This document shows, piece after piece, positions 40,585 through 58,542 of a stretch of 64,000 nucleotides of DNA. Numbering within the stretch: position 1 is the first letter of the stretch; each line of letters begins with the position of its first letter. The translations under genes were made by a program, and so were the position numbers. The DNA is from Eledone cirrhosa (Eukaryota), in NCBI GenBank assembly GCA_964016885.1, contig OZ024751.1, forward strand, positions 28,458,001 to 28,522,000. The letters run 5' to 3'. The notes beneath the pieces are model-generated. The model was given only the letters and a program-made list of their open reading frames with translations, did not search any database and was not told the DNA's origin.

Positions 40585-40728
40585 TAACGAAGGAAATGTG
40601 GTAAGGAACCAGGTAGACCATAACGCACCAAAGTACTCAATACTTAGGGTAGTAGAGTGGGTAATAGGAACCAGTAAGACCCCGACGGCTGAGCTCAAGC
40701 CGTTTCGACGGGGTCTTACTGGTTCCTA
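40585..40728 (-). mobile_element. Short (TA)n-inserted repeat family A (PLE-like 3' end) with terminal inversion
   Basis: Near-identical to 51605-51740 and 58424-58542 in reverse orientation. Ends in an inverted GGGGTCTTACTGGTTCCTA. Confidence 0.75.
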
Positions 40729-40800
40729 TATATAAATATATATATATATATATATATATATATATATATATATATATATATATATATATATATATATATA

Positions 40801-40887
40801 TACACTGGGTCGTAAAGTGTGAAATTTATAGAATTTTCTTTCTTTTCTGCAAATTTTTACAAATTTCATACTTGGCGACCCAATATA
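40801..40887. mobile_element. Tiny MITE-like fold-back, Tc1/mariner-like end
   Basis: TACACTGGGTCGTAAAGTGTGAAATTT... pairs with AAATTTCATACTTGGCGACCCAATATA. TA flanks. Confidence 0.5.
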
Positions 40888-43800
40888 TTTATTTAAGAAT
40901 TTCAAAAAATTCTTAGACACTCAATTCTTTCGGTCCATTCGTCATTCCATTGTCAATCCAAATTAAGCAAAGTAATAATAATAATAATAATAATGCTAAC
41001 TTCGTATATTCTATGTTGTTTCTTTTATTTTTTCTCTTCTTTTCGTCTTTTTCTTTATCCAACATGTTAGATTATTATGGAGGTTTGGGTGGGGTAGGGA
41101 TATAAATGTATGTATATATATATATATATATATATATATATATATATATATATATATATATATACATACATATATATATATATATATATATATATATATA
41201 TATATATATATATATATATATACTACCAATTACTTAGAATAAACAGCAAACATGCAAATATTTGTTGTCTGTCGAAAGTTCTCGATAAGAAATCATCGAA
41301 ATTCTCTATGAACAAAGTTATCTGAAGTAATTTGTGACCGTGGGGGAAGCAGAAAAAGAATTTCAGACAATGTCTGTCTTTTTTTTTTTCCTCATTTTTA
41401 TTCAAAGAATAGGACATTTTTTGTTTTCGTTTTTTGGTGATGGGTGTAGGTGAGGTTAGAAGGGGTAGAATTATATTAGAATTAGAGACTTCTGAAAAAA
41501 TGTAACCATTGGAAATAGCATACCTCGGTATAAGAAAAAGAGCAATGAAGAATAAATATATATATATATATATATATATATATATATATATATATATATA
41601 TATATATATATATATATATATATATATATATATATATATATGTTTATATATATATATGCGTGAAATGATCTGGAAATGCTAATCAGAGACCGCATTTAAA
41701 ATGAAAGCACTAAGAGAAAGAGACAAAGAATTGTAATGGTGTAGCTATATATATATATATATATATATATATATATATATATATATATATATATATATAT
41801 ATATATATATGACAATAATAATAGTAATAAAAATAATAACAAACTACTGTCTGGAAAATTTAAGCAGCAAATGGGAAAAAGCTGAACTTAAAATGATGGG
41901 GCATATATATATATATATATATATATATATATATATATATATATATATATATATATATATATATATTAAATATATACACATACATATATATATATGTATA
42001 TATATATATACATATACATTATTATCGTTATTATTATTACTGTTATTATTATTAATTTTCTGCGTTTTCTTTTTGTTGTTATGATGCATGGAGAATGGTC
42101 ATGAAGAACTCAGGCGAATCAAAACGTTAAATAAAAGGGTAAAAAGAAACCAAAACAAAAACAAAATACCAAAATAAAAGAGAGAATACACACAAACACA
42201 GCAAAAGTATTATCAACTGGGTTTTGAATAAATAAATAAATATATAAATAGTTCTAAAGAGACTAAAAAAGATTCTAGGCCCAACTAACTGTAATCAGCA
42301 ACGAACCGTATAAGGAAAAAAAGAATCACTCACTATGAAGAGTTCGATTTGCATACTATATATATAGCTACTACATATATATATGTGTATATATATATAT
42401 ATATATATATATATATATATATATATATATATATATATATATATATATATATATATATATTATATATTATATATATATATATTATATATATATTATATAT
42501 TATATATTCATATATATATATATATATATATATATATATATATATATATATATATATATATATATATATATATACACAGTACGAACTAAACTATCATCGC
42601 ATGAAACAACAAAGCAAATAAATAAATAATAAACACGATGCAAATCTTTGAAAGAAAGATGAAATATAATTTTCTACAAACGTACATGCATATACATATA
42701 TGCAGCCATGTATATATAAATATATATATATATATATCTAAATATATATATATATATATATATATGTATACATACATAAATATATATAAATGTATACATG
42801 CTTAAGGGCATACATAATTATATACCATACAGACACACAGGCGAGGGCAGACATACTTATGTATATATATGTGTGTATATATATAGAGAGAGTACGTTTG
42901 TATGTGTGTGTCCATGTATATAAATTCTATGATTGTTGTAGAAACTCCAGAATATGGAGATTCTATAAAGGGAGATAAATATCAACAAAACAAGCAAGAT
43001 AAGGAGAAAGATAAACCAATGAAGGAAAGAGACTGGTGGCTCTCAAGTTTAATATATATATATATATATAAATATACAAATGTATATATATGGAGAGCTA
43101 TAAGTCTCTTTCCCAGATATATAAATATATATGTGTGTGTAATTGTTATTAATAGTGACTGTTTACTTCAAAGTTTCGCCGCTGTTCGTGGTTTACCAAA
43201 AACAGTCATAGAAATTCGAAGTAACAGTCACTATGATAAATAATTATTGTCTTGACTCTAAACATTGTATATGAATGTGTGAAATGAACAGTTGTTATAA
43301 TTGGAAATAAGACTTGTACTGAACCCCGCAACCCCAACCAATCTATAACAAATGCTATGATTGCTATTTATCACAGCTAGAGTAATTAGTCAGTAAATAA
43401 GTAAATGGAACGTTGATTAATTTAAGAAACTGAGAGGCTATATGAATGCATAGCGTAGTAGCCACAATAACTCAATAAGCATGAAAGTAAATAAACAACC
43501 AAATTCAATAGTAAATATCCAGAAACCATTTATTTAAGTACGACTTGTTTTTATAGGTCCAGATGTTGATTTATTTGGCTGGGATTGTGTAGGTAAATTG
43601 TTGTCTAAAATTGTCGAAATGCACGCTTTTCTACTTCATGTAAGCATTGTGATATAGAATTGGAAGACTAAAGAATAAATAATCCACAAAAGCAAAGTTA
43701 ATATTGAAATGGAGTAGAAAAACAAATGTGAAGTTAATGAAACCGAAAATATGAAAATTACATTCGCTAAATGGGCAACAGAGTGGAATAATTTCTAATA

Positions 43801-44988
43801 GATAATCAATTCTTAACCACTTTCCGAATGATGAAGTTCCAATTGAGAACAGACTTAAAGCTAGCCAAAGGGGATACAGTCAAAGTGCTGCTATAGCACT
43901 CACTGTTACTTTGATGCAGAATATTCGCAACTCTAAAGAATGTTTTCTGTTTCAAACCAAACGACGTAGCGAATGATACACTGTAACTTTGAGTTGCGTC
44001 GTTAAAAACAAGATGGTGGATAGATGATACAATTTTTTCCAAAACCTGTTGACGATATTACACTGAAAAAAAATGGCGCTTATTTCTGTAACGCCACCAC
44101 TAAAAAAAAAAAAAAAATAACTTCCGTTCAAGGAAGATGGCGGACACATTGCAACTGATTTCACGATATATATATATATATACATATGTACCATATATAT
44201 ATATATATATGTGTATGTATGTGTGTATATATATTTAAAGATGCAAAAATAAAAAGTGGGCACGAGATAAAAAGAAAGGTGGTGGTGGTGGTGGAGTGAG
44301 GGGGGTTATCGAAATAATCACATCACTGTAGTACCGGTTACTCACAACTCACAAAAAAGATATTTTAACACATTGTTACACTAAACTATATTCACCATTA
44401 CAAAAAAGCACACAGAAGAAATAATAATAATAATAATAATAATAATAATAATAATAATAATAATAATAATAATAATAACGTTTACATAATAAGTATTATA
44501 TTCTATATTTTATTTGTTTACTTTCCAGGGTTGTTGTTTTTTTGTATTAATTATTGATTTATATTTTACAAAAAAAAAATGATTTATAATTGATTAACCG
44601 ATTAGATTGCTCCAAGTTGCACTTCACTCATCTATCGTGTTTTTATTTATTTTTGTTTGTTTTTTTTCATTTATTTTTTTGTTTGTTTTTGTTCGCTTTC
44701 CGATAAAATGCCATGTCAGGCATTTTGGTAAATTGAACACAGAAAAATGTGACACCAAATTTAATCCTGTTTTGAAATTAGTTCAGTCTTTCTGCCTTTC
44801 TGACTTTCTATATGGACCATTTCTATTATATATATATATTAAACAAACATTCGTCTCATTCTGACGTCACCAGCCCTGTCTCCACATGTGCGTTTTATTT
44901 TCATAATTACGCATGATGTCGAACTAGCCTGCTTTTAAATTCTCTTTTTGGCATATTATAATTAGTGAGATTTTGGTTATCGTGTTGA

Positions 44989-45068
44989 GCTCTGCTGATG
45001 ATCGAATCCAACCGTGACCATCCCCACTGAAAGTTTCGTGAAATAGTCTTTTCAAGACTATACAGCGC
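44989..45068 (+). ncRNA. Type I hammerhead ribozyme
   Basis: GCUCUG-CUGAUGA-UCGAA...UUCGU-GAAA-UAGUCUU uuc AAGACUA-UA-CAGCGC. Stable stem III, AUA triplet. Confidence 0.78.
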
Positions 45069-57049: not shown

Positions 57050-57140
57050 AACGAAGAAAGTATGGTAAGGGGCCAGGTGGACCATAACGCACCAGAGTAC
57101 TCAATACTTTGCTCAGTCGTCGGAGTTCTGACTATTTTCA
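57050..57140 (-). mobile_element. Family A fragment with inverted terminal piece
   Basis: Tail sequence joined to an inverted GCTCAGTCGTCGGAGTTCTGACTATTTTCA. TA flanks. Confidence 0.65.
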
Positions 57141-58152
57141 TATATATATATATATATATGAATATATATATATATATATATATATACATATATATATATA
57201 CATATATATATATATATATATATATATGTATATATATATATGTATATATATATATATATATATATATATATATATTCATATATATATATATATATATATA
57301 TACATATATATATATATATATATATATATATATATATATATATATATATATATATATATATATACAGCCGGTTTACTATTTTCATGCCAAGTTTTACCAA
57401 AGTGCTCAATGAACGTCAATATGATATATAACATGATACGAAATATGTAGTGGTGGTGGTGGTGAGGGTAGTAGTAGTAGTAGTAGTAGTAGTAGTAGTA
57501 GTAGTAGTAGTAGTAACTCAATTAAAAAGAGAAAAAGACCATTTGCCAAATAATTCAATAATTAATTTACTTTCATCAAATAGCTTCCAGTGAAGTAATT
57601 AAAGCAAGTGTTACAAACTTTCGGGTCCTCTTCTCTCTATGGATGTATATATATATATATATATATGTACACTCACATATATATATATATATGTACACAC
57701 ACAGTTATACACACATACACACACAAATATATGTGTGTATATATATACATATAAACATATCCGTATATATATATATACACACTCGCATACATATATATAT
57801 ATAGAGAGAGAGAGAGATATTCAAATACATATAGATATGAATATATACATGCATATACATACATATATATATATATATATATATATATATATATATATAT
57901 ATATATATATATATATATATATATATATATATATATATATATATATGTATATATACATATATCTATATCTATATGAGTATGAGTGTATTGTCTTCAGGCT
58001 ATTTCCTTACATAGGAAGTATCTCTTATAGCAGAATAATGGTAGACATATCATAAGATAATTATGACTGACACGCACAAGATGTATGATAGCCTTTATAC
58101 TAATGGGATATATATATATATATATATATAATACATATATATATAATACATA

Positions 58153-58270
58153 TAATTGTTTCTACTTTAGGCACAAGGCCACCAATTACCCAGTGCATTA
58201 CTGGTACTTTATTTTATCGACCCCGTAAGGATGAAAGGCAAAGTCAACCTCGGCGGGATTTGAACTCAGA
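58153..58270 (-). mobile_element. Main SINE
   Basis: ACTGGTACTTTATTTTATCGACCCCGTAAGGATGAAAGGCAAAGTCAACCTCGGCGGGATTTGAACTCAGA. Confidence 0.85.
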
Positions 58271-58380
58271 TTACATATAATACATATATATATATATATA
58301 TATATAATACATATAATACATATATATATATATATATATATATATATATATATATATATATATATATATATATATATATA

Positions 58381-58542
58381 TAGGAACCAGTAAGACCCCG
58401 ACGGCTGAGCTCAAGCCGTTTCGACGGCTTGAGCTCAGCCGTCGGGGTCTTACTGGTTCCTATTACCCACTCTACTACCTCAAGTATTGAGTACTTTGGT
58501 GCGTTATGGTCCACCTGGTTCCTTACCACATTTCCTTCGTTA
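58381..58542 (+). mobile_element. Family A copy with a perfect 39-bp-arm palindrome
   Basis: Arms 58381-58419 and 58424-58462, loop TTCG, tail to CCTTCGTTA(TA)n. Confidence 0.8.

What the first reader, a model, noticed from the sequence alone, without database searches (positions are those of the whole stretch)
40585..58542. Family A: TA-inserted element with a fixed 3' end, a fixed inversion boundary and variable fold-back points
Seen: up to nine pieces (8521, 40585, 48291, 51545, 52679, 55461, 55894, 57050, 58381). Tail-bearing copies end at or next to C(C/T)TTCGTTA(TA)n. Inverted segments stop at the same position (TTCCTA|TA in the best copies), but the turn-around point differs per copy, giving perfect palindromes of 56 bp (51545-51660) and 39 bp (58381-58462). 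The 51.5k copy has a private variant (CAGCTG) in both arms, so both arms derive from one template. Inference: a snapshot of the PLE integration mechanism that yields 5'-inverted pLTRs, and a recently active hairpin-generating family.
Basis: partly seen in the sequence, partly recalled or inferred. Interest (0 to 1): 0.7.

Follow-up and report, generated by a model that had tools for sequence, protein, structure and literature searches.

The report
Penelope-type stubs with three fixed ends
These are short, non-coding, very abundant inserts in TA repeats that have a fixed start, a fixed inner end and a fixed outer end, likely written by a Hydra-type Penelope retrotransposon enzyme copying a 140-base RNA from both sides of a DNA cut, which is an ordinary kind of Penelope debris.

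Summary
The nine pieces and both palindromes (56 and 39 bp) are real. They belong to a 140-nt non-coding unit that makes up about 0.2% of reads in two reduced-representation runs. The inverted arm stops at unit position 60 and the tail arm at 140. The 'private' CAGCTG variant is carried by 10-14% of family molecules. The tail opens with a stem-bulge motif also found in published Hydra-2_Amil. A metagenome scan with that motif retrieved three hammerhead-bearing families with the same layout; two of them run back into a Hydra-type endonuclease. In family A the hammerhead's first catalytic box is absent. Arms that do not overlap argue against fold-back self-priming and for two cDNAs, primed at the two cut DNA ends and joined head to head. 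The fixed start is probably a transcription start (TATA and initiator visible in the relatives, not tested here). No coding parent could be fetched. Inverted arm plus tail is published Penelope anatomy, and this scan noted the same layout many times in this genome. Verdict: new member of a known kind.

The parts
52734..52872 (+). Complete unit (unit 2-140), used as reference
52733..52736 (+). Fixed 5' start zone, where turns pile up; likely the RNA's 5' end
   Evidence: joints; 51.5k arm ends here
52750..52773 (+). Hammerhead-like half: CGAAAC, helix III and cut triplet (GUC in most copies, GUA here); no CUGANGA on either strand
   Evidence: sequence; Rfam gives no hammerhead match
52792..52793 (+). 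Fixed inner end, where inverted arms stop
52793..52872 (+). 80-nt tail, on one arm only
52800..52825 (+). Stem-bulge motif, 7 nt after the inner end, shared with Hydra-2_Amil and families F1-F3
51545..51604 (-). 51.5k inverted arm, full length (unit 60 to 1)
51605..51740 (+). 51.5k tail arm (unit 5-140)
58381..58423 (-). 58.4k inverted arm (unit 60 to 18; the join can slide along the unit's own 6-bp hairpin)
58424..58542 (+). 58.4k tail arm (unit 22-140)
40585..40711 (-). 40.6k tail arm (unit 14-140)
40709..40728 (+). 40.6k inverted arm (unit 41-60, 3-nt overlap); stops at the hammerhead-like cut position
57049..57109 (-). 57.0k tail arm (unit 80-140)
57111..57142 (+). 57.0k inverted arm (about unit 31-60), no overlap with its tail arm
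8518..8547 (-). 8.5k inverted arm (unit 31-60), no overlap with its tail arm
8548..8565 (+). 8.5k tail arm (unit 123-140)
55461..55549 (-). Older tail arm (unit 50-138)
55895..55936 (+). Older lone arm ending at the inner end; faces away from the 55.5k arm and may be its partner
48291..48309 (-). 19-nt fragment of the 5' start (unit 2-20)

Best explanation
Family A is a 140-base non-coding unit inserted in TA repeats as two head-to-head arms ending at two different fixed points, and it is likely the end piece (pseudo-LTR) of a Hydra-type Penelope retrotransposon, copied from a short RNA by two priming events at the two ends of a DNA cut. Steps: (1) shown: TA context, fixed inner end, fixed outer end 80 nt further on, pile-up of turns at the 5' start, one end of each kind per insert. 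(2) Inferred (about 0.9): a Penelope RT/GIY-YIG protein acting in trans cuts (TA)n on both strands. (3) Inferred (about 0.75): each cut end primes its own cDNA, one at the inner site and one at the outer site; each runs toward the RNA's 5' end, stops there or earlier, and the two cDNA ends are joined, often over 0-3 nt of microhomology or the unit's own small hairpin; a perfect palindrome results when both stop near the same place. (4) Inferred (about 0.6): the stem-bulge motif 7 nt past the inner end positions the inner start. (5) Inferred (about 0.55): the fixed 5' point is the transcription start of a promoter that lies upstream in the parent, so the inserts are promoterless dead ends. (6) Open (about 0.5): one RNA molecule or two from one source. 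The hammerhead is predicted to be inactive in the unit.
For: Published PLE anatomy: inverted 5'-truncated copy and one-sided tail; in vitro both strands are cut and extended, and two internal RT starts delimit the tail. Motif shared with Hydra-2_Amil. Motif scan: 104 of 119 loci fall in three families (75, 21, 8; F3 is found by construction). F1 inverted arms end 4-7 nt before the motif in 21 of 26 cases, 13 at exactly 7; F3 in 2 of 3; family A at 6-7. 119 matches in 119 loci, so no locus carries two tails, and 5 of 5 two-armed window copies have one end of each kind. L037 (F1) and L061 (F2) run upstream into an endonuclease end; L037 has CxCX5C and matches Hydra-2_Amil by eye. L041 has the motif upstream of a Hydra-type RT start. 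Against fold-back: no arm overlap at 8.5k and 57.0k; 5 listed read joints link the 5' start to a position beyond the inner end; L031 and L077 have no overlap. Start: 31 of 36 F1 and 9 of 13 F2/F3 arm views stop within 7 nt of helix I (rows not independent), at TCA|TT with a TATA-like box at -28 to -36 in 7 of 7 long copies.
Against: No coding parent of family A was seen (no genome held; not in the Craig supplement). The unit lacks the canonical hammerhead said to be universal in Hydra. The tail is 80 nt, not 30-40. In vitro, the two RT starts did not differ between strands, so one-of-each is not explained by that work. Some family A molecules run on upstream of 52734 into a shared stretch (loose ends), and the depth drop there partly reflects my reference; their share is not measured. 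No TATA box could be read for family A. The whole unit folds no better than shuffles (z -0.49), and the stem-bulge fold is not its minimum-energy fold. Pfam did not recognise the L037 or L041 proteins. F2 inner ends gave no clean exact count (1 of 5 at -7; 5 of 6 at -5/-6 by alignment).
Confidence: 0.72

Rival explanations
1. Fold-back self-priming: one cDNA starts at the tail, folds back and copies itself to the inner end (the first reader's wording; self-priming was proposed for rotifer PLE palindromes). Later deletions or loop flips would explain the exceptions.
For: Arms are identical and share a minority allele at 51.5k; 40.6k fits; turns use small hairpins; flipped-loop variants exist in reads (7, 19 and 12 reads starting at 58412-58415); the model is in PMC3846280.
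Against: It needs the tail arm to contain the inverted arm: false in 4 of 5 window copies. Five read joints pair an arm that reaches the exact 5' start with a partner beginning beyond the inner end, which chance deletions would not give repeatedly. It gives no reason for a fixed stop at unit 60.
Confidence: 0.12
2. Same two-arm Penelope insertion, but the fixed 5' point is an RT stall at RNA structure or a processing cut, on a longer RNA, not a transcription start; or family A is a self-standing non-autonomous element with its own source gene.
For: Shared upstream letters in some molecules; a 6-bp hairpin lies 10 nt into the unit; the 40.6k arm stops at the hammerhead-like cut position (1 of 5 copies, not beyond chance).
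Against: In F1/F2 the pile-up lies in an AT-rich leader at promoter spacing, upstream of the ribozyme and not at its cut. No hammerhead half lies upstream of the start in the 30 letters visible.
Confidence: 0.1
3. A MITE-like DNA transposon or a LINE-driven SINE that targets TA repeats.
For: Short, fixed length, TA context, high copy number.
Against: The unit's two ends are not inverted repeats of each other (sequence); copies are 5'-truncated and two-armed; no tRNA or Rfam match; the motif and layout match Hydra relatives. L1-type inversions have no fixed outer boundary (recalled).
Confidence: 0.04
4. The palindromes are assembly or library artefacts.
For: No read spanning either locus with its flanks; no raw read spans the 58.4k junction.
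Against: Junction classes occur in independent short-read data; arms stop at a biologically fixed point with a one-sided tail, which a read fold-back would not give; the same layout recurs in unrelated families.
Confidence: 0.02

Closest known systems
Hydra clade of C-terminal EN+ Penelope-like elements (Craig et al. 2021, PMC8557442; passages, section 11 and three supplement searches read), nearest by motif Hydra-2_Amil
   Same: (TA)n target; stem-bulge motif 7 nt after the inner end; position of the motif downstream of a hammerhead slot; 5'-truncated, inverted inserts.
   Different: No ORF seen; first catalytic box of the hammerhead absent; fixed short unit; not Hydra-1_Obim (its listed hammerhead and 5' end differ).
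Inverted pLTR plus optional tail of EN+ PLEs (Arkhipova et al. 2013, PMC3846280; passages read)
   Same: Head-to-head inverted arm, palindromes at the join, tail on one arm, microhomology at 5' joins.
   Different: Tail 80 nt against 31-40; that paper reads the palindromes as self-priming, which the non-overlapping arms here do not fit.
Poseidon of Anolis, two internal RT starts (Frangieh et al. 2024, PMC11167929; parts 1-2 of 4 read)
   Same: Two fixed copying starts that delimit the tail; AT-rich target cut and extended on both strands; uncut RNA used.
   Different: Different clade; no strand-specific choice of start in vitro; no fixed 5' stop described in the parts read.
Animal non-LTR retrozymes (Li, Clavereau, Pollet 2026, bioRxiv 10.64898/2026.07.22.740005; abstract and passages read, supplements not seen)
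   Same: Non-coding PLE derivatives related to pLTRs.
   Different: Family A is not tandem in the window, shows no permuted ends and has no complete hammerhead.

Membership tests
EN+ PLE insertion signature | 5'-truncated copy with an adjacent inverted copy | tested here: met
   5 two-armed copies in the window; joints in reads
EN+ PLE insertion signature | Tail on one arm only (published 30-40 nt) | tested here: met
   One-sided in 5 of 5, but 80 nt long
EN+ PLE insertion signature | Parent with RT and GIY-YIG in one ORF | not testable with these tools
   No genome held; read tools give only 30 loose letters
Hydra clade | (TA)n insertion preference | tested here: met
   exceptions at 52.7k left, 55.5k and 55.9k
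Hydra clade | Canonical hammerhead in the pLTR | tested here: not met
   No CUGANGA on either strand of the unit; no Rfam hammerhead. The parent's upstream part is unseen. Filed as working like a Hydra stub, not as a proven member.
Hydra clade | C-terminal EN with CxCX5C linker, no CCHH; DKT and RWK motifs | not testable with these tools
   No family A protein. CxCX5C seen only in relative L037.
Hydra clade | Stem-bulge motif 7 nt after the inner end (not a published criterion; derived here and in earlier scan notes) | tested here: met
   0 matches in 200 shuffles of the window
Non-LTR retrozyme | Tandem monomers, each with a complete hammerhead | tested here: not met
   No tandem copy among 9 pieces; core absent
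MITE / DDE element | Terminal inverted repeats on a uniform unit | tested here: not met
   Unit ends are unrelated; arms vary in length
tRNA-derived SINE | tRNA-like head | tested here: not met
   ARAGORN none in the window; Rfam none over the unit; decayed heads can escape both

The most novel reading that the evidence does not exclude
These stubs are a base-level record of the Penelope copying reaction: a dimeric RT starts at two motif-marked sites on one RNA, one site for each cut DNA end, and runs to the RNA's capped start; family A shows that this works, at very high copy number, with the hammerhead's catalytic box gone, and the 52.7k locus, where a tRNA-like repeat is joined head to head with a full unit, suggests that the two arms can come from different RNAs. 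My paper searches found no statement of the one-of-each rule, the motif or the fixed start; this scan has noted them before on other DNA.
Probability: 0.45. Interest if true: 0.55.

Novelty: new member of a known kind. Interest (0 to 1): 0.3.

Why it matters
How Penelope elements make their inverted arms and tails is an open question named in PMC8557442 and PMC11167929. A 140-nt, high-copy, young family with three fixed points gives a minimal template for testing it in vitro and many insertion junctions to count. The family itself is ordinary genomic debris, the layout is published, and this scan has already recorded the same reading for other families of this genome, so the added value is one more family, with a long tail and no complete ribozyme.

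Tried and rejected
Rfam over 40-59 kb gave hairpin and microsatellite matches only; the one above its gathering score is a generic hairpin fit. An exact family A pattern found 0 stretches in metagenome contigs. Family A motifs: 0 hits in the Craig supplement, apart from the shared motif in Hydra-2_Amil. No RNA holder listed (no evidence either way). Window ORF list was not scanned against protein libraries, so coding remnants in the window are not excluded. Pfam blank for L037 and L041. 11 of the 15 'other' loci of the motif scan look like chance matches and were dropped; L009, L026, L041 and L110 look real. The exact inner-end script failed on a poor reference and was redone; the relaxed motif scan printed nothing through a regex flaw. 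A cap-derived extra G was considered: the G's seen (5 of 10 F1 views; 51.5k junction) can come from the other arm, so no claim. Reads passing the 58.4k loop were first taken as junction support and then rejected because they begin at 58412-58415. A binomial test for the pile-up (p about 4e-8) is not relied on: the joint rows are selected and not independent. Look-ups of earlier findings by sequence and nearby place gave nothing. Type II and III hammerhead readings of the unit were tried by eye and fail.
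Full report
Observation. The window is microsatellite-rich animal DNA (40% masked); no genome is held. A resemblance to octopus DNA is recalled and was not tested. All nine pieces align to one another. On a unit of 140 nt (unit 1 = 52733), 6 of 7 tail-bearing copies end at unit 140 before (TA)n and six arms end at unit 60/61. The palindromes are exact: 56 bp with loop GACT and 39 bp with loop TTCG. The tails of 51.5k and 58.4k are identical over 80 nt, and the other complete tails differ by 3-4 nt.

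Family-wide data. Laid on 52660-52878 at 80% likeness, two raw reduced-representation runs gave 23,326 of 12,467,656 and 28,011 of 12,647,150 records (0.19% and 0.22%; biased libraries, so no copy number), and contigs of two further runs, under two species labels, gave 22,586 and 46 records. (TA)n follows 52793 in 3,643 and 3,327 reads, so the inner end is general. Of 29 joint rows 15 were shown; 12 are opposite-strand joints inside the unit, and 10 of these have one side at 52732-52736. The two best supported join 52734 to 52737 or 52738 (14 and 16 contigs; reads from 2-6 starts). None of the 9 rows with letters between the sides shows upstream sequence. In the window, 51.5k and 52.7k both begin there. 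A caution: depth falls at 52734 partly because my reference has another repeat upstream, and loose-end lines show that some molecules go on with shared letters ending in AATTTA, so a longer parent probably exists; its share is not measured. The 'private' variant is 9.7-13.9% of depth.

Reality of the palindromes. Reads aligned over 52733 mostly carry the letter of the 51.5k junction and stop three bases further on (60 of 69 and 25 of 36 reads, 17 and 14 starts; 39 contigs). For 58.4k, 4 of 8 listed contigs cross the loop, 38-43 nt long with 2-6 diagnostic letters on the left; the 7, 19 and 12 raw reads that pass the loop begin at 58412-58415 and are flipped-loop variants, not support. Junction classes are thus seen in independent data, the loci themselves are not.

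What it is. The tail opens with CTCTAC...GTATTGAGTACT, a motif able to form a bulged stem. An earlier scan note (e1-9533619) pointed to such motifs in Hydra elements. The published Hydra-2_Amil end carries the same motif downstream of its hammerhead (PMC8557442 supplement). A scan of metagenome contigs with the motif gave 119 loci from 11 of 64 parts; 104 fall in three families, F1 75, F2 21 and F3 8, the last found by construction; 30 of 119 show a hammerhead within 95 nt upstream. Their inverted arms stop 4-7 nt before the motif in 21 of 26 F1 cases and 2 of 3 F3 cases, as family A does at 6-7; F2 gave 5 of 6 by alignment but 1 of 5 by exact match. No locus carries the motif twice. L037 and L061 run upstream into an endonuclease C-terminus, in L037 with the Hydra CxCX5C linker, close by eye to Hydra-2_Amil; L041 has the motif ahead of a Hydra-type RT start (Pfam blank). 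So the layout belongs to Hydra ends. Family A differs in its 80-nt tail (F1-F3 about 67-70) and in its hammerhead slot: CGAAAC, a helix and a GUC triplet are present, CUGANGA is not, and Rfam sees none. Craig et al. call canonical hammerheads universal in Hydra, so family A is filed as working like a Hydra stub, with membership unproven.

How it likely works. Published: PLE inserts have an inverted 5'-truncated copy and a one-sided tail; Poseidon protein cuts and extends both strands of AT-rich DNA and starts at two internal RNA sites that delimit the tail, on uncut RNA. Fold-back of one cDNA requires the tail arm to contain the inverted arm. That fails at 51.5k and 58.4k by a few bases, which a loop flip could excuse, and completely at 8.5k and 57.0k, at L031 and L077, and in five read joints that tie the 5' start to 52799-52833 (the far end of those arms is not visible). 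Two cDNAs, one from each cut end, joined head to head, explain all cases (inference). All 5 two-armed window copies have one end of each kind; the in vitro work saw no strand difference in start site, so this rule is not yet explained. The fixed 5' point is read as a transcription start by analogy: in F1 and F2/F3, 31 of 36 and 9 of 13 arm views stop within 7 nt of helix I, in a leader beginning at TCA|TT, with a TATA-like box at -28 to -36 in 7 of 7 long copies (promoter consensus recalled; a similar pLTR promoter is described in PMC3846280). In family A the start lies in TTAGTC, which resembles an initiator (recalled), and the 51.5k arm ends on its A; no TATA box could be read. If so, inserts are promoterless and dead. 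Arm identity at 51.5k favours one template or source about 7- to 10-fold; arm-to-arm conversion is not excluded.

Comparison and novelty. The layout is published Penelope anatomy; non-coding pLTR derivatives are known as retrozymes, which family A is not. Searches found no paper stating the one-of-each rule, the motif or the fixed start; subscription papers and bioRxiv supplements are outside what I could see. Earlier notes of this scan report the same reading for many families of this genome; two of them (e1-9952324, e1-9939475) describe palindromes lacking the catalytic box and may be this family, which I could not check. They are leads, not support. Papers seen: PMC11167929 parts 1-2 of 4; PMC8557442 passages, section 11 and supplement searches; PMC3846280 passages; PMC4209133 parts 1-2 of 4; bioRxiv 10.64898/2026.07.22.740005 abstract and passages.

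Verdict. Observation confirmed with three corrections; interpretation partly supported; new member of a known kind; interest 0.3.

Noticed in passing
window 52679-52733: The left neighbour of the full 52.7k unit is another repeat, lying head to head with it and ending outward in AT-rich sequence; majority letters and a loose end look like tRNA A and B boxes on the minus strand (consensus recalled). Either a two-RNA insertion or an insertion into an older repeat with loss of its 5' part.
   Followed up: partly
window 8287-8415: A 129-nt, 90% palindrome of another family with a CUGANGA...GAAA core on each strand and a longer left arm, beside the 8.5k piece.
   Followed up: partly
window 44840-45299 and 46805-47571: About 460-575-nt repeat with a hammerhead-like core, once forward and once reversed with a 192-nt direct terminal repeat (95%); retrozyme-like.
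   Followed up: no
window 18938-19078 and 43140-43246: Two older imperfect palindromes (70% and 75%) near TA repeats.
   Followed up: no
window 58738-58869 and 59306-59439: 134-nt inverted pair, 96% alike, about 440 nt apart, the right arm ending in (TA)n.
   Followed up: no
window 61459-61904 and 63465-63986: Recent direct duplication (322 nt at 98%, then 86 nt at 95%).
   Followed up: no
window 51236-51390, 54565-54742, 58155-58271 and about ten more: A common interspersed SINE-like repeat in both orientations.
   Followed up: no
window 48322-50595: Long arrays of short units (about 22-24 nt, then 9 nt).
   Followed up: no
reads on window 58414-58449: 7, 19 and 12 reads carry the unit's small hairpin with its 4-nt loop reversed, a flipped-loop variant.
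   Followed up: partly
L009, L026, L110, L041: Further families with the stem-bulge motif; L009 has a non-overlapping inverted hammerhead arm, L041 a second possible hairpin before an RT frame.
   Followed up: partly
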